From contig JBJCIZ010000843.1 in the NCBI GenBank assembly GCA_051294375.1, forward strand, positions 1 to 10,383: a stretch of 10,383 nt of DNA, given 5' to 3'. Below are positions 1 to 9,666 of this stretch, in pieces (position 1 is the first letter of the stretch; each line of letters starts with the position of its first letter). The notes under the pieces were generated by a model. That model saw only the letters and a list, made by a program, of their open reading frames with translations, was not told the origin of the DNA and searched no databases. The DNA comes from Paraspadella gotoi (Eukaryota; Animalia; Chaetognatha). Position numbers and translations under genes: made by a program.

Positions 1-40
1 GCAAGAACACGAGGCTCAGTACCCCGGACCATAGTTGACA
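1..40 (+). repeat. 3' end (U5) of the 5' LTR
   Basis: GCAAGAACACGAGGCTCAGTACCCCGGACCATAGTTGACA is 40/40 identical to 9627-9666; the two copies diverge immediately after ...TTGACA, a canonical CA terminus. Confidence 0.95.
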
Positions 41-154
41 TTTAATACATTGGACAAAGGGAGGTGTTCTTGGAGACGAGGAGTTTGGTGCAAATCTATT
101 TGAACTACTTGGTGGCGAGTTAAAAGGTCAGTAAATCCCGCAGCACAAAGAACT

Positions 155-360
155 GGTACTCCACGAAGAGAGTGCCGAAGCAGAACGGACGCTAAGAAGT
201 TGCGTCGAAGATTTTTGTTTTTTTTGACGTCCAAGTCAAGGTGACACTCCACGAAGAGAGTGTTGAACGAGAGGGGAGGTGCCCGAAGCAGCACCTCTTC
301 CACAGAGAGAGCGCCCGAAGCAGCGCTCTCTCCAAAAAACATTGGGCGGAAGAGCCCGCC
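155..360 (+). promoter_or_regulatory. 5' leader array of six stem-loops with GAAG-containing loops (candidate packaging/dimerisation signal)
   Basis: Hairpins at 155-176, 188-206, 243-264, 273-300, 305-332 and 343-358; loops CACGAAGA x2, TAAGAAGTT, CCGAAGCA x2, GGAAGA. Structure read from the sequence; function inferred from position. Confidence 0.6.
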
Positions 361-440
361 AGGTGCGTACCCGCTAACCCATACTGGTTATTATTTATTG
401 AACCATTATAGTTGTTGGGACTGAAACGATATTAATATTC

Positions 441-474
441 AAAAAAAAAAAAAAAATAAAAAAAAAAAAAAAAA

Positions 475-505
<31 letters not shown>
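441..505 (+). repeat. Internal poly(A) tract A16-T-A18-T-A29 in the 5' leader
   Basis: Directly visible. Confidence 0.95.
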
Positions 506-630
506 CAAATACACACATTATTGCGTTATCACTGCCTCAATATTGCTTTAATTGTTGTTCGCGCTCTAAATCGGGGGCGGAGTGAAACAATCAAAATTGA
601 AACAAATAAACAAAATAAATAAACCAGTGA

Positions 631-3012
631 ATGTCTCGCACCGTTGCCCGTGAATCTGTAGGCATGGAGTTACTGTTAGGATATTTTGCTGATAGTGATA
701 ACCAAACACAGAGAGGGGTCAGGCATTACGTGGCCGAGTTGGCCCATGGCATCGACACGTTTAAGAAATTCGCAGGACTAGCCAGGTATGATCCAACGCC
801 GGACACAATCGCCGAGGCTTCACATCAGAGGAAATTACTGAAGAAGGTGACCCAGCAGCTTTACGACGTCATCGACGTGATCTCGGCTCTCGAGACGGAC
901 CGGGCGAGGACAGTTCTAGACGGAGCGAAGCGCGCCCTCAATGAGTTCTCCGCGCCGGGAGCCACGCCGTCAACTGCATCCGCTCCGTACAGGGTAGTTC
1001 CGCCAGTGCCCTTTGCCTCGCAGAGATGCTTCTCGGCTGGAGATGTCCGACCCGCAGGTGAGGAATATGGGAGGAACTGGCCGTCGCCACACAGTTCAGC
1101 ATGGGCCGCGCAGCCGGATCTCGGAATCCCCATCGCCTCGTCAAGCCGGACGGTGATCATTTCGGGGCCCTCCACGCCGCCGCCAAGGAGGGAGTCCGTG
1201 TCATCGCGCGGGTCGCGTGCATCACAGAGACGCCGCATAGTGGAGGCGTCGAAGGCGGCTGAAGAAAAGGGCAGGTTAGAGATAGAGAGGTTGAGGGTGG
1301 AATGGGCAAACAAGGAGAGGCAGATGAAGTTGGAGATGGAAGAAAGGGAGAAGCGACTGAGGCTGGAGATGGAGACTCAAGAAAAACAGTGGAGATTAGA
1401 AGTGGAGAACAAGGAAAAACAGTGGAGGTTGGAAATAGAGAATAAAGAGAGGCAACTAGAATTGAAACAGAAGGAGAGAGAGAACGAACTGAGACGTTTT
1501 GATGCCGAGGAAGAAGATGACCGGGAGCACGATTTTGATGGGCTGGAGACGGTGGTAGAGACGCCGCACGGAGCTCAGCTGCTGCCAACTCAACCGCCAG
1601 CCGTCCCGACGGAGCCACCGCCAAGAGCGCCGGCGCCGCCGCCAAGGGCGCCGACGCCGCCGCCAAGGGCGCCGACGCCGCCACCGACGAGGCAGCAGCA
1701 AACGCCGCGCCGCAGGTACCGAGTTGAGACGATAATGACTCCAGACGGAGACTTAGTAGATTTCCAAGTGCCGATCAACGACGATGAAGAAGTTCCAAAC
1801 TTGGCAAGGCCCGAAGCTGCGCGCGCTGCAGGCCCGCCCCCACCAAAGGTTAGACAAATATCCCCAATCAGGCTGGTCACGGAACGGGCCGAACCAACGA
1901 CGACGCCAAGCAGGAATGACCCGAGACCAATAACGCCACCCAGCGAACCCACGATAGAGACAAACCCCATGGCACAATTATGTCGCATCCAGCTGCAGCA
2001 TCAGGCGCTGACCCTACTGCAGCAAAAGAGACCCAAATCAAAGTTTATCTGTGATGGAAAGGTAGACTTCGAGACCCAATTGAACTTGTTTGAGTCGCTC
2101 GCCAACATAGACGGGGTGACTGAGGAGATGAGGTTTGGAGAGTTGAGAGAATACTTCAGTGGAGACGCCTTACACATCATCTCGCGCTTCGAGGCTTCAA
2201 AGGATTACGCCCAAGCGCTTACAAAGGTGATAAAAGCATTAAAATTTGAGTTTGGAAAAAAGGCCCACACGGCGAAGCACATGCTGAAGGAGTGGTTGAA
2301 GGGAGGTAAGGTCCGCGAAGCCGCCGGGGTGAAGACGGCGATACTGGAACTGGAGAAAATCTATGCATGGGCGCACGAGACGGGACGCGGATCCAGCTTC
2401 GGGGCACAAGATACATACAACGACATCTTTAACAAAAGACTGCCGCAATTCGGTGCGGCCTGGGCAAAAAGAATGGCCGACGACAGACTCGCGAGGTTGG
2501 CCGATGAGGACGATGATCTCTCCCAAGAGGTAGAGCCTGGATTTGATGAGTTCATTACTTTCCTGAAGAGACAATCCATGATACAAGAAAATAGAAATGT
2601 TATATTCGGCGCGACTACTGCAGCCACGACGACAACAACGACGGCGCCGAGAATGGTCGGCAGGACCTTTCACCGAGGATCCGCGTCGGCGAACGTGTCG
2701 GCCAGCATTGACACGATGGCATTCCCAAATCCCAATTCAAATCCAGCCACACATGCGCCGCGGCGAAATATGTCACTCAGCTGTGCTTTCTGCAGAGGAG
2801 GACACCACAACGGATCGTGCGACAGGTATTTGGGCCTGAAGAAAGAAGCTCGGAGAGCTCTGCTGGACGAAAAGGGACTGTGTCGACGATGCCTGGGACC
2901 AGGACACACTGCAGCCACATGCAACAAACTTCTCGGATGCCGCATCTGCTCAGGGCGACACCACTCATCGCTGCATGAGGACGACCAGACGAGGCCGTCC
3001 ACGACGTCCTGA
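631..3012 (+). CDS. gag: BEL/Pao Gag, 793 aa
   Basis: Long ORF after the leader: coiled-coil and Pro-rich N-half, capsid-like middle (LREYFSGDALHII...YAQALTKVIKALKFEFG) and three C-terminal Cys/His knuckles. Confidence 0.93.
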   Translation: MSRTVARESVGMELLLGYFADSDNQTQRGVRHYVAELAHGIDTFKKFAGLARYDPTPDTIAEASHQRKLLKKVTQQLYDVIDVISALETDRARTVLDGAKRALNEFSAPGATPSTASAPYRVVPPVPFASQRCFSAGDVRPAGEEYGRNWPSPHSSAWAAQPDLGIPIASSSRTVIISGPSTPPPRRESVSSRGSRASQRRRIVEASKAAEEKGRLEIERLRVEWANKERQMKLEMEEREKRLRLEMETQEKQWRLEVENKEKQWRLEIENKERQLELKQKERENELRRFDAEEEDDREHDFDGLETVVETPHGAQLLPTQPPAVPTEPPPRAPAPPPRAPTPPPRAPTPPPTRQQQTPRRRYRVETIMTPDGDLVDFQVPINDDEEVPNLARPEAARAAGPPPPKVRQISPIRLVTERAEPTTTPSRNDPRPITPPSEPTIETNPMAQLCRIQLQHQALTLLQQKRPKSKFICDGKVDFETQLNLFESLANIDGVTEEMRFGELREYFSGDALHIISRFEASKDYAQALTKVIKALKFEFGKKAHTAKHMLKEWLKGGKVREAAGVKTAILELEKIYAWAHETGRGSSFGAQDTYNDIFNKRLPQFGAAWAKRMADDRLARLADEDDDLSQEVEPGFDEFITFLKRQSMIQENRNVIFGATTAATTTTTTAPRMVGRTFHRGSASANVSASIDTMAFPNPNSNPATHAPRRNMSLSCAFCRGGHHNGSCDRYLGLKKEARRALLDEKGLCRRCLGPGHTAATCNKLLGCRICSGRHHSSLHEDDQTRPSTTS
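1315..1479 (+). repeat. Five 33-bp (11-aa) degenerate repeats in gag (coiled coil)
   Basis: ERQMKLEMEER / EKRLRLEMETQ / EKQWRLEVENK / EKQWRLEIENK / ERQLELKQKER. Confidence 0.8.
1615..1686 (+). repeat. 21-bp tandem repeat encoding (PPPRAP[A/T])x3-PPP in gag
   Basis: CCGCCGCCAAGGGCGCCGACG unit, about 3.4 copies. Confidence 0.9.
2782..2976 (+). other. Gag nucleocapsid: three zinc knuckles (Cx2Cx3Hx4C, Cx2Cx4Hx4C, Cx2Cx3Hx4H)
   Basis: CAFCRGGHHNGSC, CRRCLGPGHTAATC, CRICSGRHHSSLH; this triple arrangement is diagnostic of BEL/Pao. Confidence 0.93.
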
Positions 3013-3063
3013 CTTGCAGCAGCATACGCAGCAACCGGGGCACTCCGTCCAATTGTCCCAGTA

Positions 3064-6000
3064 ATGGTGAAAAATGGATCAAAAAAGATTGCTACGTATG
3101 CTTTATTGGACACAGGAGCCACACGGTCGGCGATAACATCGAAAATAGTAAGAAATCTAGAATTACAGCCCTATACACTATTCACCAACCTGACCACCTA
3201 TGATTCAATATCGAGAAACTGGAGAGATTATGTAGATGTAACTATATCGGCCCTTGATGGATCTAATTCAACAATTGCAAATAAGGTACTAGTCGGCGAC
3301 ATCCTAACTACTGAAAATGAAACGCCCTACCGAAATGACGACATACGAGACTACGAGTATATGAACGACATCGAACTAGACGAGTTAAGTAAAGACGCTA
3401 TCGAACTTATACTAGACGCGAGATTCGCTCCACTCTGGATTGGAGGAGAGACAAGAGTCGGAAATGCCAAGGAACCCATTGCATTAAAAACGGCGTTTGG
3501 ATGGACACTAATCGGCGTCTCATCAAAGCAAAACCCCGAGACTATAGGATGTTGTATTGATACAAATGAGTACGAAGAGTTAGAAAAATTAATTCAAACG
3601 ATGTTTAAACATGATTTCATCTTGAGAGGAGACGAAAGATATCCCTCAGAAGTGGTCCACCCATCGGCACAGGACCAATACGCGTTGGAGCAGTTGGAAG
3701 CCGGAATTCGGAAGAACCCAATCACCGGCCATTACATCGCCCCGTCACCCTGGAAAAGGGGAAGAGAAAAAACGGCTGAATATTTTAGAACAGTCCGCGA
3801 AGAATCGATCCAAAATGCGAAAAATAGAGCAAGAAAAACGGCATTTAAAATGAAGAGTGACCCGACATTGTTAGAGGGAGTCATGAAAACCATGGAAGAG
3901 ACAATTGAGATGGGCCACTCGAGAAGAGTGGTCGAAGACACATTAGATGAAAACCCCGAATTCTACACACCCTTGCACGTCGTCACGAGGCCGGACAAGC
4001 CCGGCAAATTTCGCATTTGTCAGGATTGCGCGTCGAAGGTGAGAGGCAGGTCGCTGAACGACGAATTGATCCCCGGACCAGACAACTTGACCCCGTTGAT
4101 TGGCATCCTATTCAAGTTCAGAAAAAAGAAAGTAACTTTAGCGGGCGACATAAAGTTATTCTTTCATCAAATCGAGTTGGACCCGAAGGATGTCGGAGCC
4201 TTCAGGTATTTTTTCTATAAAGACAAGACCCTCAAAACTCTGGAGAAACATGAGCCCCTCGTCCACGTATTTGGCGGAGCCGGCAGCCCAGGAGTCGCCA
4301 CCTTTGTACTACAGTACCACGGAAAAAGCATTCAAGACGAATTCCCAATAGAGGTAATAATTGCCCTATTCATCAAGTTTTATGTCGACGACTACTTGGA
4401 TTCACTTGATGACGTTGAAGAGGCGCGAAAGATGCGGAGAAATCTGACAGAGGCCTTGAGAAAAGGAGGATTTGAACTCGGTAAATGGCAATCCTCACAT
4501 CCCGCGGCTTTGGTGGATACAGATGATGAGACAGTCGAAACTACAGATGAGCCGAGTGACGAATTAACAGACGACTTGGAATCAGTCGCAGATAACGCGC
4601 TTCCGGAGGACCCGTCAGAAGGAGAACACGCCTCCAAAGTGTTGGGAGTCGGATACAACTTTAAAAGAGACGTATATTTTGTAAAAAAGTCAAAGAGAGC
4701 TGAAAACGAGGTAAACACAAAGAGAGACCTGTGGAGATTGGTCGCGTCCGTTTTTGACCCGCTAGGCCTCGTGTCGCCGTTCACACTAAGAGGACGCATC
4801 CTGGCGCAAAAGGCGGCGAATCTAAAATTAGATTGGGATACAAAATTACCCAAAGAACTACGAGACGAAACGAACGAATGGAGAAAGAGTCTACCCCACC
4901 TGAAGAGGATCCACTTGCCCAGATGGACGTCAGACGACGATATAAAGGTAAACAAAACCACTCTGATAGTGTTTTGTGACGCATCAATCGAAGGATACGG
5001 TGCCGTGGCGTACATAAAAAAGGAGGACACGAATTCTGGAAAAAACAAGATATCATATTTTTACTCCCGAGCCCATGTCGTACCCATGCAAATGCAAAGA
5101 ACAATTATACCCGGACAAATTGACCACGGCGACAGCATGCCGAGACTTGAGCTGAATGCGGCGCGACTCGCCGCCCAGATGAGAGACGTGATCGTAAGGG
5201 AAGGAGGCGAAACATTTGACGAAATAGTGATGCTTACAGACTCCGCGACTGTCCTAAAATGGATACAAAATTGGACAAAAAGGTTTCGCACATTCGAAAA
5301 CTTCAGGTTGAAGGCGATCAGAGCATTGACACAAATCTCAGACTGGGCTCACGTACCTGGAGAGGAAAATCCAGCCGACTTCACAAGTAGAGGATTAGCA
5401 GCAGATGAGCAAAAAAAGTGGAAAATATTCCATGAAGGTCCAAGCTGGTTGACGAAGTTGAAGGAAGAATGGCCGATCGAAAAGGACACTGAAAAAATAA
5501 GAAAAACAAAAAAGGAACCAGATACAAAATTAAACGAAATAGATGAGGACAGTGGTTACTCACCAATTGAATTAGTAGTGATTAACGCGACCCACGAATA
5601 CCCAAAAAACCCAAACACAGATGATGCAAACGTAACGTGGCCATTAAAAATCACGGAGAAGATTAGCGCATGGATGGGAAAAATCCGCCGAGTCGCTTAC
5701 TTCATGAAGGGAGTGAAAGGAATCGTTGAAATCCTAAAGGAGAAAAACAAGGTAAACAGGAAAATTAATGTAAACACGCTCGATGCGAAAACAGTAAAAC
5801 AAGCAAAAATAAATCTCATACGGGCTGTGCAAAGACAACATTTCGGGTCCGAGATGTTTGAACTAATAAAATTAGGAGTCAACTCACCAGACTCACATAA
5901 AGAACTCAGAAACAGATCCACAAAAATAACAGAACTGAACCCCTTTATCGACGAAGAAGGATGCCTGAGAACAGGAGGACGACTAAAAAACGCGCAAGAT

Positions 6001-7167
6001 TTAACATATGATGCAAGACATCCTTATATACTACCAAAAAATGACGAAATAGTCAACGCCATGATCAGAGACGAGCACGAATCATTACTACACGCAGGTA
6101 CAGGGACCACGTTCCACTTACTGAAACAAAAGTACACATTACTCGGGGGACGGTACCAAGTCGAAAATATAATAAGAAAATGTGTAACATGTCAACGCTT
6201 GTACAAAAGGCCCATGCCACAAAAAATGGCCAACCTACCGATCGAACGTACAAACATAACCATCCCATTTAAAGCAACAGGCCTGGACGTATTTGGCCCC
6301 TTTCAAGTAAAAATGGCCGGAAGAGGCCTGAATAAAAAGAATGTCATGTTACTCACATGCCTAGCAACACGAGCAATCACATTCGAAGTACTAAAAGACA
6401 TGTCTGCCATGTCAGTCTTAAATGCACTGATTAGATTTAAAAACTCATGTCCCGGGCTAGAAACGCTGATCTCAGACAACGGAACAAACTTCGTTGGCGC
6501 AGCCAACGAAATAAAGAGACAACTAAAAGCAATAAGCCAAGAAAAAAAGCTAAATGAGACGATAGCAAAAAAGGGAATTGAATGGAGATTCGGCCCACCA
6601 GACGCCCCACATTGGGGCGGTATTTGGGAAAGAATGGTAAAATCAGCAAAAAGACACATCAGCGCAGCCATGCCCCCACAGCCAGATTTAGACACATTCA
6701 CGACGATACTCAGCGAAATCTCAGGCATACTAAACCGTAGACCACTGACAGCCGCATCAACAAACCCAAACGAAGAAACCACGCTATCTCCAATAAACTT
6801 TATTTACCCGTATACACACTCGTCAACAGCACTTACCTTACTGCCCCACGCGCCATCCGAAGGAGACCAAATGAGAGCGACGTGGAGACAAGTCAGAGAG
6901 ACGGCAGACAGATTCTGGGAGCGATGGTCAGTCGAATATTTAACGACGTTACAAAAAAGAGAAAAATGGAACAAGACGAACGACGACTTGAAAGTTGGCC
7001 AACTCGTATTAATAGCAGAAAATAATCTTCCACGAGATGTTTGGCGCACCGGAGTAGTCATCGAGATCAAAGGAGAAGGAAATCACGCAAGAGAAGCTTT
7101 AATAAAACTCCCAAATGGCAAAATCAGTAGACGACACAAGATGTCACTTGTGCCGCTCGAAATATAA
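3064..7167 (+). CDS. pol: BEL/Pao Pol polyprotein (aspartic protease, RT, RNase H, integrase); frame is open from 3013, in frame with gag
   Basis: Protease LLDTGA (DTG 3109-3117); RT YVDD (4381-4392); RNase H FCDAS (D 4978), PRLEL, TDS, NPAD; integrase HHCC (H 6076, C 6181) and D-D-E at 6286/6475/6628. No stops or frameshifts. Confidence 0.96.
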   Translation: MVKNGSKKIATYALLDTGATRSAITSKIVRNLELQPYTLFTNLTTYDSISRNWRDYVDVTISALDGSNSTIANKVLVGDILTTENETPYRNDDIRDYEYMNDIELDELSKDAIELILDARFAPLWIGGETRVGNAKEPIALKTAFGWTLIGVSSKQNPETIGCCIDTNEYEELEKLIQTMFKHDFILRGDERYPSEVVHPSAQDQYALEQLEAGIRKNPITGHYIAPSPWKRGREKTAEYFRTVREESIQNAKNRARKTAFKMKSDPTLLEGVMKTMEETIEMGHSRRVVEDTLDENPEFYTPLHVVTRPDKPGKFRICQDCASKVRGRSLNDELIPGPDNLTPLIGILFKFRKKKVTLAGDIKLFFHQIELDPKDVGAFRYFFYKDKTLKTLEKHEPLVHVFGGAGSPGVATFVLQYHGKSIQDEFPIEVIIALFIKFYVDDYLDSLDDVEEARKMRRNLTEALRKGGFELGKWQSSHPAALVDTDDETVETTDEPSDELTDDLESVADNALPEDPSEGEHASKVLGVGYNFKRDVYFVKKSKRAENEVNTKRDLWRLVASVFDPLGLVSPFTLRGRILAQKAANLKLDWDTKLPKELRDETNEWRKSLPHLKRIHLPRWTSDDDIKVNKTTLIVFCDASIEGYGAVAYIKKEDTNSGKNKISYFYSRAHVVPMQMQRTIIPGQIDHGDSMPRLELNAARLAAQMRDVIVREGGETFDEIVMLTDSATVLKWIQNWTKRFRTFENFRLKAIRALTQISDWAHVPGEENPADFTSRGLAADEQKKWKIFHEGPSWLTKLKEEWPIEKDTEKIRKTKKEPDTKLNEIDEDSGYSPIELVVINATHEYPKNPNTDDANVTWPLKITEKISAWMGKIRRVAYFMKGVKGIVEILKEKNKVNRKINVNTLDAKTVKQAKINLIRAVQRQHFGSEMFELIKLGVNSPDSHKELRNRSTKITELNPFIDEEGCLRTGGRLKNAQDLTYDARHPYILPKNDEIVNAMIRDEHESLLHAGTGTTFHLLKQKYTLLGGRYQVENIIRKCVTCQRLYKRPMPQKMANLPIERTNITIPFKATGLDVFGPFQVKMAGRGLNKKNVMLLTCLATRAITFEVLKDMSAMSVLNALIRFKNSCPGLETLISDNGTNFVGAANEIKRQLKAISQEKKLNETIAKKGIEWRFGPPDAPHWGGIWERMVKSAKRHISAAMPPQPDLDTFTTILSEISGILNRRPLTAASTNPNEETTLSPINFIYPYTHSSTALTLLPHAPSEGDQMRATWRQVRETADRFWERWSVEYLTTLQKREKWNKTNDDLKVGQLVLIAENNLPRDVWRTGVVIEIKGEGNHAREALIKLPNGKISRRHKMSLVPLEI
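3955..4500 (+). other. Reverse transcriptase core (approximate bounds)
   Basis: FYTPLHVV, KFRICQDCAS, SLNDELIPGP, GDIKLFFHQI, VHVFGGAGSP, FYVDD, GGFELGKW. Confidence 0.88.
4963..5450 (+). other. RNase H domain, BEL/Pao type (approximate bounds)
   Basis: LIVFCDASIEGYGAVAY ... MPRLELNAA ... TDSATVLKWI ... WAHVPGEENPADFTSRG ... GPSWL. Confidence 0.88.
6076..7164 (+). other. Integrase (HHCC, DDE core with 50 residues between D2 and E, BEL-type C-terminal domain)
   Basis: HESLLH...CVTC; GLDVFGPF; SDNGTNFVGA; HWGGIWERMVKSAK; LNRRPL; FWERWSVEYL...GQLVLI...WRTGVV. Confidence 0.92.
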
Positions 7168-7310
7168 ACAAAGACACGCAATAGTGGCATACAGCGAATT
7201 CTAAAAATAAAACGAAGAGCTAAGCAAGCACGTAACCTAGAAACCGAGCAACAAAAGACGCGCGAGACCGAACATTGAAGCTATACCGCGTAAAAACCAT
7301 TCCACCAAAA

Positions 7311-7360
7311 ATTTATTTTTTTCATTTTTTTTAAAATTCATTCTTTTTGCTAAAAAGAAG
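7311..7360 (+). promoter_or_regulatory. T-rich tract plus AG: candidate 3' splice acceptor for a subgenomic ORF3 mRNA
   Basis: ATTTATTTTTTTCATTTTTTTTAAAATTCATTCTTTTTGCTAAAAAGAAG on an otherwise A-rich strand, ending about 25 nt before the ORF3 ATG. Function inferred. Confidence 0.4.
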
Positions 7361-7383: not shown

Positions 7384-8604
7384 ATGCAGAACGACGTAGA
7401 CGCAATCGACGTCATGATAAAAGAGGAAGAAGTAGTGGACCTTGAGTTCAGCCCGCCCGAAAGGTGGCCAAAGAAATTCACGGACTTATACTGGGAGCGA
7501 CTAAGAAGCGGAGAAGTCTCACCGACTGCAAGGAGGGCGCTAGAAGAAAAGAACATCCCAATCGTATTGAACACTCCTGATGAATGGGCGTTCAACAAAC
7601 GCTGGAACGAGATATCAGCGCTGCCGCAATTAATCGTCAACATACGAGAAGAATGGAGAAAGGTCGCGGCGTCACGCGGCTGGTCGGTAAGGAGATTCAC
7701 ACAGTATATCAAGAGGAACTTTCACGGGGAAAAATTAATGGAGAGAGAGGAAAGGGAGGAACAAAAAAAGAATACCCACACACAAAGAGAGGAACAAAAC
7801 AGAGAGACGGAAAGGACGAGAGTTGTAATAAACGAAGGAAGGGAAAAATGGAGAAGAGAGACGGAAAGGAACAACCTAGCTGAATCAGAACTAAAGGCAC
7901 AAAGAGAGATCTTAAAGTTAAGAAACGAGAAAGCCCAATTAAGCCACGAGCTAGAATGGCACAAAGCACGGATACAAGTCATAGAAAACGCGAGAGCCAA
8001 GGAAAAAAGGGAACTGGAAGAAAAATTAGACAGGAAAGTATGGGAGAACCTTGAAACAGAGCGCCGTTGGAGTAGAGTGGTAGAGCTCACACTCGGGAGT
8101 CGAGGACGGGAAATATGGAACGAGGAGCCAAGGACCTCAACATCAAGGTTATTTCAACAAATGACGTGCGGACACAGACAAGAGGAGGCAAAAACCTCGC
8201 TGTCACGGGCATATTTACATACGTGTGGACATAGCTGCGGGCGGGAGGAGGAAGTACTCACGACCTCACAGGCACTCCCGCCCGAACCTCAAAGAGATCC
8301 AAGAGGCACAATACATGAAGAGACGAACGAAAATGAAAAAATAAAAATAAAACTAGTGAAGGAGAACAACAGATGGGAAAGGTCGAGAGAAGCCGAGAAA
8401 GAAAAAGAGCATCAAAAACCAAATCGAGACCAAGGATGGGAGGTAATGAAGGTCGTGGAACCAAGCGTCAAAAAACGTGCAGCCCAAACACAAGGCAACG
8501 GACCGTCGACGTCAAAGAACACGAACCAAGATGAAAGAAAAAAGGAGAAGAGGAGAAAGAAAGAAAATGGCGAAAAAGAAATCACCGAAATCCACGCCAA
8601 GTGA
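7384..8604 (+). CDS. ORF3: 406-aa accessory protein of unknown function in the env position (not env-like)
   Basis: Uninterrupted sense ORF between pol and the 3' UTR, ATG in AAGATGC context. Trp-rich N-terminal ~115 aa, E/K/R coiled coil, two TCGH motifs, basic tail RKKEKRRKK; no hydrophobic signal or TM stretch. Confidence 0.8.
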   Translation: MQNDVDAIDVMIKEEEVVDLEFSPPERWPKKFTDLYWERLRSGEVSPTARRALEEKNIPIVLNTPDEWAFNKRWNEISALPQLIVNIREEWRKVAASRGWSVRRFTQYIKRNFHGEKLMEREEREEQKKNTHTQREEQNRETERTRVVINEGREKWRRETERNNLAESELKAQREILKLRNEKAQLSHELEWHKARIQVIENARAKEKRELEEKLDRKVWENLETERRWSRVVELTLGSRGREIWNEEPRTSTSRLFQQMTCGHRQEEAKTSLSRAYLHTCGHSCGREEEVLTTSQALPPEPQRDPRGTIHEETNENEKIKIKLVKENNRWERSREAEKEKEHQKPNRDQGWEVMKVVEPSVKKRAAQTQGNGPSTSKNTNQDERKKEKRRKKENGEKEITEIHAK

Positions 8605-8702
8605 AAACACACAAAACCCTACAAAAAATTATCAATAATTGTCACAAATTATGTTGGACGTATTGGATCCAAATTATCACTAAAGTTATGTTGGTTATAT
8701 TC

Positions 8703-8879
8703 TGATTATTATGACGAAATCCAATGTTGATGGATTGAAAAATAATTGATTATTATGACGAAATCCAATGTTGATGGATTGAAAAATATTTGATTATTAC
8801 AACAAAATCCAATGTTGATGGATTGAAAAATATTGTGATTATTACGACGAAATCCAAAGTTGATGGATTGAAAAATATA
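8703..8879 (+). repeat. 44/45-bp tandem repeat x4 in the 3' UTR, each with an AATCCA-N7-TGGATT inverted repeat
   Basis: Units start at 8703, 8747, 8791 and 8836: TGATTATTA(T/C)(G/A)AC(G/A)AAATCCAA(T/A)GTTGATGGATTGAAAAATA... Confidence 0.93.
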
Positions 8880-8961
8880 CCAATTGATGGGCAAAATATC
8901 TATCACAACGCCTTCGCCCCGAGCGAAACGGGGGGAGGGAAAGGAGAAGTTTCGACGGAGC

Positions 8962-9048
8962 GAAGGACCGGTGCCGGCCCTCGAAACGGTCGGCGCCGCA
9001 GCAGGAGTTGAAGGACCGGTGTCGACCCCCGAAACGGTCGGCGCCGCA
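8962..9048 (+). repeat. Two 39-bp direct repeats (48-bp period), each forming a 10-bp GC-rich hairpin
   Basis: 8962-9000 GAAGGACCGGTGCCGGCCCTCGAAACGGTCGGCGCCGCA; 9010-9048 GAAGGACCGGTGTCGACCCCCGAAACGGTCGGCGCCGCA. Confidence 0.9.
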
Positions 9049-9113
9049 AAAGAGTCGCAGTGGAGGCGCAACGAAGCCGCAGCAACGCCGAAGGACGAAG
9101 CAGCAGCGGTGGA

Positions 9114-9160
9114 GGAGCGACGACGAAGGAGCTACGACGAAGGAGCTACGACGAAGGAGC
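9114..9160 (+). repeat. 14-bp tandem repeat GGAGC(G/T)ACGACGAA, about 3.4 copies
   Basis: Directly visible; units start at 9114, 9128, 9142 and 9156 (partial). Confidence 0.88.
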
Positions 9161-9246
9161 GGGCGTGGCGACGACGAAGCAGCGGAGTTACGGGGGGAGA
9201 GGATGCCGGTCAGTGCCGCAACGATTGCCCGACAAGAAAAAATTTC

Positions 9247-9263
9247 GGGGAAATTGGGGGGAG
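9247..9263 (+). promoter_or_regulatory. Polypurine tract (GGGGAAATTGGGGGGAG) abutting the 3' LTR
   Basis: G6AG immediately followed by TGT, the typical BEL/Pao PPT/LTR junction. Confidence 0.72.
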
Positions 9264-9666
9264 TGTAAAGAGAGGCGGGCCAACTCAGCGGCACCGACGC
9301 GGCACGGGCGCGGCAATTCTTCTTTACGCGGCGCCGAGCAGCGACGGAGGCGGAAGAAAAGGCGCATACCGAGTTTGGGAGAGACGAAGAGACGGCGCCC
9401 TTTTTTGCTGAGGGAAATTTATTTAATATTTCTTTTTTGTCTAATAATTTTATATTGATACTTGGTCAAATACGGGGGAACCATAGATGTAAGATAATAT
9501 TTAAAATAAAGATAAAATAAGGGAAATATTTAATATTTGATATTCTTGAAATATAGGTATTAAACTTTGTTACAATACTCTGTGATATTAAACTGGTTGT
9601 TGTTACAACGGTTGCCGTGATTGCCAGCAAGAACACGAGGCTCAGTACCCCGGACCATAGTTGACA
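9264..9666 (+). repeat. 3' LTR (~403 bp), TGTAAA...TTGACA
   Basis: The 3' end is fixed by identity with 1-40. The 5' end is inferred from the PPT and the 5/6 terminal inverted repeat (TGTAAA vs TGTCAA) and cannot be confirmed inside the window. Confidence 0.78.
9505..9592 (+). promoter_or_regulatory. Candidate polyadenylation signals in the LTR (AATAAA 9505-9510; ATTAAA 9559-9564 and 9587-9592)
   Basis: Hexamers in the AT-rich LTR segment; the last is followed by GT-rich TGGTTGTTGTT. Confidence 0.4.

What the first reader, a model, noticed from the sequence alone, without database searches (positions are those of the whole stretch)
155..360. Leader array of six hairpins: different stems, shared GAAG loops, with covariation inside one element
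Seen: GGTACTC-cacgaaga-GAGTGCC (155-176) and GACACTC-cacgaaga-GAGTGTT (243-264) share the loop and differ by pairing-preserving changes (G-C to A-U, U.G to C-G, G-C to G.U). GGGGAGGTGC-ccgaagca-GCACCTCTTC (273-300) and GAGAGAGCGC-ccgaagca-GCGCTCTCTC (305-332) share the loop on different 10-bp stems. GACGC-taagaagtt-GCGTC (188-206) and TGGGC-ggaaga-GCCCG (343-358) also display GAAG. Established: retroviral psi signals lie between PBS and gag and present purine-rich loops to NC zinc knuckles. Inference: a multivalent RNA protein-binding array, such as a packaging signal for the triple-knuckle Gag; I know of no description of this for BEL/Pao.
Basis: partly seen in the sequence, partly recalled or inferred. 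Interest (0 to 1): 0.78.

Follow-up and report, generated by a model that had tools for sequence, protein, structure and literature searches.

The report
Repeated-loop hairpin array in retrotransposon leader
The untranslated leader of an intact animal BEL/Pao retrotransposon carries four strong predicted hairpins with the same CGAAG loop motif on stems that differ yet stay paired, which likely forms a multi-site protein-binding platform on its RNA, most plausibly for packaging, although no binding is tested and distant relatives lack the array.

Summary
The hairpins are real. The window is an intact BEL/Pao LTR retrotransposon. In its leader (41-630), H1-H5 are predicted with high pairing probability; H6 depends on context. 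The region folds at z -4.8, and 5 loops share GAAG against at most 2 in 400 shuffles. The tighter motif is CGAAG, in four 8-nt loops that form two look-alike pairs. Between partners, all 9 changed base pairs stay paired, and all 4 one-sided changes give G-U on the sense strand, favouring an RNA role. Limits: two look-alike pairs are not six independent cases; five near-identical runs show no variation; two distant relatives lack the array; a sister family's leader could not be read. Packaging signal is my best reading (0.45); a splicing or export platform is the main rival, since candidate splice donors flank the array. My searches found no BEL/Pao packaging signal described. In passing: 7 of 7 readable gag-pol junctions in this marine clade are in-frame TGA-CTN, a likely programmed readthrough, and the element has an orphan third ORF. 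The scan's earlier notes held nothing on this array.

The parts
1..40 (+). 3' end of the 5' LTR (the rest lies before the window)
   Evidence: 100% identical to 9627-9666
41..630 (+). Leader between LTR and gag, with no ATG
   Evidence: 0 ATG against 7.9 expected, 0 of 300 shuffles as low
127..132 (+). Candidate 5' splice donor upstream of the array (AAG|GTCAGT)
   Evidence: Consensus match only; use not shown
154..177 (+). H1: 7-8 bp stem, loop CACGAAGA
   Evidence: Pair probability 0.98
176..180 (+). CGAAG directly 3' of H1, outside a loop
188..206 (+). H2: 5-bp stem, 9-nt loop with GAAG but no CGAAG; another CGAAG follows at 206-210
212..241 (+). U-rich tract followed by AG (234-235 or 239-240), a candidate 3' splice site; overlaps a seventh hairpin (222-241) and the palindrome GACGTC (226-231)
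   Evidence: Sequence and fold; function untested
242..265 (+). H3: 7-8 bp stem, same loop as H1; 17-nt core identical to H1
273..300 (+). H4: 10-bp stem, loop CCGAAGCA
305..332 (+). H5: 10-bp stem, same loop as H4
343..360 (+). H6: weak hairpin with two registers
363..368 (+). Candidate 5' splice donor just downstream of the array (CAG|GTGCGT)
   Evidence: Consensus match only
441..506 (+). A-rich tract in the leader
631..3012 (+). gag, 793 aa, triple Cys-His box at 2782-2976, ending in an in-frame TGA followed by CTT
3013..7167 (+). pol (protease, RT, Pao peptidase A17 region, integrase zinc-binding domain), in frame with gag
   Evidence: Pfam PF05380 6e-33, PF18701, PF17921, PF00078
7384..8604 (+). 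ORF3, 406 aa, highly charged, no relatives found; preceded by a U-rich tract and AG at 7356-7360
8697..8877 (+). Four 44-nt tandem repeats, each able to form a hairpin
8881..9263 (+). Second CGAAG-rich zone in the 3' region, not in stable loops; ends in the polypurine tract (9256-9263)
   Evidence: 8 against 2.0 expected, 0 of 300 shuffles; none in a loop of a 5-bp stem
9264..9666 (+). 3' LTR (TG...CA); start inferred from the polypurine tract

Best explanation
The array is likely a multi-site binding platform on the genomic RNA of an intact BEL/Pao retrotransposon, where four predicted hairpins hold the same CGAAG motif in 8-nt loops, and its most likely ligand is the element's own triple-knuckle Gag, which would make it a packaging signal. 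Shown: position in an ATG-free leader, stable predicted folds, identical loops within each pair, and stems that change without losing a pair. Inferred: a hairpin module was duplicated, selection on the sense RNA kept loop sequence and stem pairing while stem sequence drifted, and several Gag molecules bind side by side and start the particle. Inferred and weak: the array lies downstream of a candidate donor at 127, so an ORF3 RNA spliced from there, or started internally, would lack it and be excluded from particles. The array is specific to this family; distant relatives must use other signals.
For: Fold and shuffle statistics. All 4 of the element's 33 CGAAG sites that sit in a loop of a stem of 5 bp or more are these four. 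9 of 9 changed pairs stay paired: 5 change on both sides, 4 on one side. All 4 one-sided changes give G-U on the sense strand and A-C on the antisense (1 in 16 if either were equally likely, my arithmetic). No loop-loop duplex below -2.3 kcal/mol, and no exact complement of the loops' central 6-7 nt on the sense strand. Gag has the triple Cys-His box (PMC554778, passages). Retroviral psi lies in the 5' region and MMTV Gag binds a looped purine stretch; Ty3 packaging needs both UTRs (PMC8096270, Introduction and passages), and CGAAG is enriched in both untranslated regions here but not in pol (11 against 8.3).
Against: No binding, probing or packaging data. Leaders of L003 and L005 (35-39% Pol identity) have 2 and 5 hairpins with no shared loop 4-mer. 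Nothing from a roughly 82%-identical sister family laid on the leader at 80%. With two sequences per pair the covariation controls are weak: 276 of 500 and 25 of 500 shuffles reach the observed value, and sliding H4/H5 by two columns still pairs 65-81% of cells. The loop-versus-stem contrast (0 of 16 against 14 of 36 differing) is partly circular, because pairs were picked by their loops. In isolation H5 folds better on the antisense strand (-20.5 against -18.2). In MMTV the central GAAG was the less critical part of the loop (PMC8096270). No PBS was verified.
Confidence: 0.45

Rival explanations
1. The loops bind a host SR-type splicing factor or the element's ORF3 protein and control splicing or nuclear export of the RNA, as a loop-displayed splicing enhancer or a Rev-response-like element would.
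For: The array lies between two candidate donors (GT at 127 and 363) and contains a U-tract with AG, so 236/241-362 could be a small exon holding H3-H6. ORF3 has a candidate acceptor, as does the downstream ORF of L007, which carries an RS/SP-repeat stretch. Loop display of purine enhancers is known for the fibronectin EDA exon (seen only as reference titles in PMC7404189; otherwise recalled).
Against: H1 has the same loop as H3 but would be intronic. The one probable RNA run has a contig spanning 41-347 with no joint, and its ORF3 contig ends at 7308, upstream of the acceptor, with no loose end. Contigs cannot show RNA ends, so this is a weak hint. The window's ORF3 has no RS repeat run like that of L007.
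Confidence: 0.25
2. The array is a by-product: short hairpin modules were duplicated and made self-complementary by template switching or slippage during copying, with no selected function.
For: The element is rich in local repeats. The core is only two look-alike pairs. H4/H5 arms are AG/CT-rich and can be slid. Relatives lack the array.
Against: Copying one arm onto the other gives perfect pairs, not four G-U pairs all on the sense strand. The two pairs share CGAAG although their stems are unrelated, and loops stayed identical while half of the H4/H5 stem positions changed.
Confidence: 0.15
3. The array tunes gag translation, for example by slowing scanning ribosomes or as part of an internal entry site together with the A-rich tract, so that some RNA is set aside for packaging.
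For: The 590-nt leader has no ATG and a 66-nt A-rich tract before gag.
Against: The lack of upstream ATGs fits ordinary scanning. A barrier needs stems, not identical loops.
Confidence: 0.08
4. The motif works as DNA: repeated transcription-factor sites in the provirus, or hairpins in single-stranded DNA during reverse transcription.
For: CGAAG is also enriched in the 3' region outside stable loops. Enhancer repeats in the leaders of insect LTR elements, and the high stability of C-GAA-G DNA triloops, are recalled, not tested.
Against: Double-stranded sites need no compensating stems. DNA folding energies are much weaker and equal on both strands, and G-T pairs add little.
Confidence: 0.07

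Closest known systems
Retroviral psi signals, in particular the MMTV SL4 purine loop (PMC8096270; abstract, Introduction and passages read)
   Same: 5' location before gag, purines exposed in a hairpin loop, a nearby splice donor, a Gag with Cys-His knuckles.
   Different: Four near-identical loops in tandem instead of one; the motif is CGAAG, whereas GGAG was the critical part in MMTV; no verified PBS or dimerisation loop; no experimental evidence.
Ty1 and Ty3 packaging regions (as summarised in the Introduction of PMC8096270)
   Same: LTR retrotransposon; 5' signal, and for Ty3 both UTRs.
   Different: Another superfamily; no repeated-loop array in the passages read.
Belpaoviridae / BEL-Pao elements (PMC8742986, whole text; PMC554778 and PMC3118150, passages)
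   Same: LTRs, polypurine tract, triple Cys-His Gag, protease-RT-RNase H-integrase order, about 10 kb.
   Different: [quoted passage not shown] Here gag and pol are in frame but split by TGA, the third ORF has no match to any family searched, and no PBS was verified. No packaging signal is described there.
Loop-displayed purine splicing enhancers (fibronectin EDA; seen only as reference titles in PMC7404189)
   Same: GAAG-type purines in hairpin loops near splice sites.
   Different: Use of the splice sites here is not shown, and the motif is repeated on both sides of the candidate acceptor.
Type II readthrough signals UGA-CUA / UGA-CGG (PMC3159437, passages); Tca2 gag-UGA-pol (PMC2194720, passages)
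   Same: In-frame UGA followed by CU at the gag-pol junction.
   Different: The third base varies (CTN); no common downstream structure was found across the 7 junctions. This is a side finding.

Membership tests
Belpaoviridae (BEL/Pao) | LTRs with a polypurine tract before the 3' LTR | tested here: met
   1-40 equals 9627-9666; purine tract 9256-9263 then TG. The start of the 5' LTR and the target-site duplication lie outside the window.
Belpaoviridae (BEL/Pao) | Triple Cys-His box in Gag | tested here: met
   CX2CX3HX4C-type, CX2CX4HX4C and CX2CX3HX4H-type motifs at aa 718-782 (pattern from PMC554778)
Belpaoviridae (BEL/Pao) | Pol with protease, RT, RNase H, integrase and Pao-type domains | tested here: met
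   PF05380, PF00078 (below cut-off), PF17921, PF18701; all best hits carry PF05380
Belpaoviridae (BEL/Pao) | gag and pol continuous or overlapping | tested here: not met
   In frame, separated by TGA; the same in 6 related loci. I treat this as a variant layout, not as exclusion from the family.
Belpaoviridae (BEL/Pao) | tRNA primer-binding site after the 5' LTR | tested here: inconclusive
   Six TGG sites at 51-154, none next to the LTR; no host tRNA available. L003 has no TGG in its inferred leader.
Packaging signal (psi) | Located in the 5' region before or into gag | tested here: met
   155-360, within leader 41-630
Packaging signal (psi) | Stem-loops exposing purines | tested here: met
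   Predicted only
Packaging signal (psi) | Structure conserved with covariation among related elements | tested here: inconclusive
   No variation in 4 of 4 runs laid; absent in 2 of 2 distant clade leaders; sister leader unreadable
Packaging signal (psi) | Specific high-affinity Gag binding and requirement for encapsidation | not testable with these tools
   Needs experiment
Packaging signal (psi) | Self-complementary dimerisation loop nearby | tested here: inconclusive
   GAAG loops do not pair with each other; a 6-nt palindrome at 226-231 is half buried in a stem
Described Rfam RNA family | Covariance-model match | tested here: not met
   No match in the leader up to E 1; one sub-threshold hit at 8909-8949
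Exonic splicing enhancer | Lies in an exon whose splice sites are used | tested here: inconclusive
   Consensus sites present; no joint in the one probable RNA run

The most novel reading that the evidence does not exclude
This is the first recognisable packaging signal of a BEL/Pao element: a modular array of CGAAG-loop hairpins read by the triple-knuckle Gag. It sits in an undescribed marine clade that makes Pol by UGA-CUN readthrough and carries a third gene on a separate RNA that the signal excludes from particles.
Probability: 0.3. Interest if true: 0.68.

Novelty: new variant of a known kind. Interest (0 to 1): 0.42.

Why it matters
The ICTV profile calls Belpaoviridae replication poorly understood (PMC8742986), and my searches found no packaging signal or Gag ligand for the family. 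A 200-nt array with four near-identical loops and a 65-residue knuckle domain gives a small, direct in vitro test of what the triple Cys-His box recognises. The surrounding clade also appears to use programmed UGA readthrough, which the profile does not list. The limit on importance is that structured, purine-loop leaders are expected in LTR elements, and this array is so far seen in one family only.

Tried and rejected
Own genome: none held, so other copies and host tRNAs could not be read. Rfam: no match in the leader. Gag 440-793 found no homologue in the word-based search, though it aligns to the Gags of fetched loci. Viral contigs: two scans, no relative. The look-up of P0004 gave gene positions but no DNA, and that of P0017 repeated L003. 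Sequencing runs: no RNA holder on record; X9 is RNA by guess only. X9 has no cover of 348-438, which proves nothing. Loop-loop kissing and long-range pairing: not supported. Antisense UUCG-tetraloop reading: considered; the antisense folds do not form that tetraloop, and the G-U pattern favours the sense strand. Self-priming: an 8-nt complement of the leader start lies in the LTR; treated as chance. Clade-wide array: rejected for L003 and L005, whose leader bounds are inferred. Six leaders of ordinary BEL/Pao elements (25-334 nt) had 0-2 hairpins and no shared loop. A common structure after the gag stop: not found. ORF3: no Pfam family, no hit among 1.84 billion representatives, no usable Atlas hit. 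The four-hairpin alignment was misaligned and not used. The first tree run did not finish. Literature searches found no BEL/Pao packaging signal and no BEL/Pao readthrough report. I recall a 2003 survey naming a BEL element with a gag stop codon; one search found nothing, so readthrough may not be new to the family. No supplements were read.

Full report
What the window is. It holds one apparently intact BEL/Pao LTR retrotransposon: the last 40 nt of the 5' LTR (identical to 9627-9666), a leader (41-630), gag (631-3012), an in-frame TGA, pol (3013-7167), a third ORF (7384-8604), a repeat-rich 3' region, a polypurine tract and a 3' LTR inferred as 9264-9666. Pol matches the Pao peptidase, DUF5641, integrase zinc-binding and, below cut-off, RT families. 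Gag ends in the triple Cys-His box at 2782-2976, the hallmark named in PMC554778 (passages). The closest proteins (31-43% identity, P0001-P0021) come from ENA and JGI assemblies, and the related loci are metagenome contigs; one cluster member sits in a SAR324 bin, which suggests marine plankton. No host genome is held. An earlier scan note describes the genome as an invertebrate's (not checked).

The observation. H1-H5 have pair probabilities of 0.63-1.0 in a fold of 41-640; H6 as written has 0.03-0.07 there but forms in shorter folds. Region 140-380 folds at z -4.77 (0 of 200 shuffles). It has 7 hairpins against 1.6 expected, and 5 loops sharing GAAG against at most 2 sharing any 4-mer in 400 shuffles. 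Among 434 windows of 240 nt over this element and 8 related loci, only four have three or more loops sharing a 4-mer: two on this leader and two on the 44-nt repeats of the 3' region. The region was chosen after the fact and shuffles ignore duplication, so these numbers show order, not function.

Refining the motif. GAAG is common on this purine-rich strand (96 sites) and only mildly enriched in the leader (8 against 3.9). CGAAG is strongly enriched (6 against 0.8, 0 of 300 shuffles) and again in the 3' untranslated region (8 against 1.4), but not in pol. Four of the six leader sites are in the 8-nt loops of H1, H3, H4 and H5; two lie just 3' of H1 and H2. Of 33 CGAAG sites in the window, these four are the only ones in a loop closed by 5 bp or more. 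The core is therefore two look-alike pairs, H1/H3 and H4/H5, with H2 and H6 as weaker members.

Is it selected, and on which strand? Between partners 14 of 36 stem positions differ and 0 of 16 loop positions do, but the pairs were recognised by their loops, so this is partly circular. Less circular: all 9 changed pairs remain pairs, 5 by changes on both sides. All 4 one-sided changes give G-U on the sense strand and would be A-C on the other, which points to sense RNA rather than DNA or arm-to-arm copying. The controls are weak with two sequences: 276 of 500 and 25 of 500 shuffles reach the observed values, and the AG-rich H4/H5 arms also pair when slid by two. H5 alone folds slightly better antisense.

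Relatives. Four runs laid on 41-438 showed no differing letter, so they give no covariation. A sister family at about 82-85% identity exists in the same runs, yet nothing of it laid on the leader at 80%; its leader sequence could not be read, so its structure is untested. Of 11 metagenome loci, two include a leader: L003 and L005, at 35-39% Pol identity. They have 2 and 5 hairpins and no shared loop, and no nucleotide match to our leader. Their leader bounds are inferred. Six ordinary BEL/Pao leaders had 0-2 hairpins. The array is thus family-specific as far as seen. Rfam has no match in the leader.

How it most likely works. The loops do not pair with each other or with the rest of the element, so a protein ligand is the simplest reading. 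Position, repetition and the zinc-knuckle Gag favour packaging. Retroviral psi lies in the 5' region, MMTV Gag binds a looped purine stretch, and Ty3 needs both UTRs (PMC8096270, Introduction and passages). The same paper shows that the central GAAG of the MMTV loop mattered less than its flanks, so the motif itself is not evidence for Gag. I put packaging at 0.45. The main rival (0.25) is control of splicing or export: candidate donors sit at 127 and 363, a U-tract with AG lies at 212-240, and ORF3 has a candidate acceptor. Run X9, RNA by guess, has a contig across 41-347 without a joint and an ORF3 contig that ends at 7308 without a loose end; contigs cannot show RNA ends, so this only slightly weakens the rival. 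A neutral by-product (0.15), translational tuning (0.08) and a DNA-level role (0.07) remain. No PBS could be verified: six TGG sites lie 11-114 nt from the LTR and no host tRNA was available.

A side finding. The window and all 6 loci with a readable junction have gag-TGA-CTN-pol in frame. In a FastTree tree of 77 RT-region rows, the window, the 21 best hits and three locus translations form one 25-row group with support 100 (midpoint root, no bootstrap), and none of the 21 hits includes Gag knuckles. UGA-CUA is a known readthrough context (PMC3159437, passages). Tca2 shows that such junctions can hide other mechanisms (PMC2194720, passages). No common downstream structure was found. The ICTV profile lists only continuous or overlapping gag and pol (PMC8742986, whole text). 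I recall an earlier report of a gag stop in one BEL element but could not find it. ORF3 has no detected relative.

Novelty and verdict. Ten literature searches found no description of a BEL/Pao packaging signal; the library lacks most subscription papers and Repbase reports, and no supplements were read. The scan's earlier notes held nothing on this array. The feature is real and probably selected as sense RNA. It works like a retroviral psi in position and anatomy, but membership is unproven: binding is untestable here and cross-family conservation is inconclusive. I rate it a new variant of a known kind, interest 0.42.

Noticed in passing
window 3010-3015; L001:1043, L002:321, L003:3775, L004:168, L005:2847, L006:1988: All 7 readable gag-pol junctions are in-frame TGA followed by CTN. 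Five of the six loci are placed directly or through their protein, with the window, in one 25-row clade (support 100, FastTree; 77 rows; L005 was not in the tree). None of the 21 best Pol hits carries Gag knuckles. Likely programmed UGA readthrough across a marine BEL/Pao clade; possibly a stronger finding than the hairpins.
   Followed up: partly
window 7384-8604: Orphan 406-aa charged ORF3. In run X9 (RNA by guess) its contig starts at 7308 with depth 64, while exact-match gag/pol contigs have depth 5-9; DNA runs are even. A weak hint of a separate ORF3 RNA; contig depth cannot rank genes.
   Followed up: partly
L007:4583-6079 and L003:9332-10252: The relative's downstream ORF has a coiled-coil-like charged stretch and an RS/SP-repeat segment, and follows a clear U-tract and AG; no significant similarity to the window's ORF3.
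   Followed up: partly
window 4106-4405, 5252-5356, 5488-5564 (diverged contigs in run X9): Three joints with CT..AC ends, which read GT..AG on the minus strand: possibly spliced antisense transcripts of related elements; the letters between are not known.
   Followed up: no
window 1932-6974: A sister family about 82-85% identical is present in 4 of 4 runs and crosses the gag-pol junction without gaps.
   Followed up: partly
window 8697-8877: Four 44-nt tandem repeats, each with a hairpin preceded in three copies by CGAAA: a second small hairpin array in the 3' region.
   Followed up: partly
window 8881-9263: GC-rich structured zone with 8 CGAAG, partly from a 14-nt tandem repeat; overlaps a 179-codon open frame (8872-9411) of unknown reality.
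   Followed up: partly
window 41-170; L003:1052-1476: No TGG-type PBS next to the LTR in the window, and no TGG at all in L003's inferred leader; L013 and L014 also lack one. The primer may be unconventional.
   Followed up: partly
window 441-506: A 66-nt A-rich tract in the leader; the relatives' leaders are U-rich instead.
   Followed up: no
window 162-169, 250-257, 283-290, 315-322: All four 8-nt loops start with C, end with A, and could form an inner C-G pair closing GAA with one bulged base, on the 5' side in H1/H3 and the 3' side in H4/H5. Read from the sequence; not predicted by the folding program.
   Followed up: no
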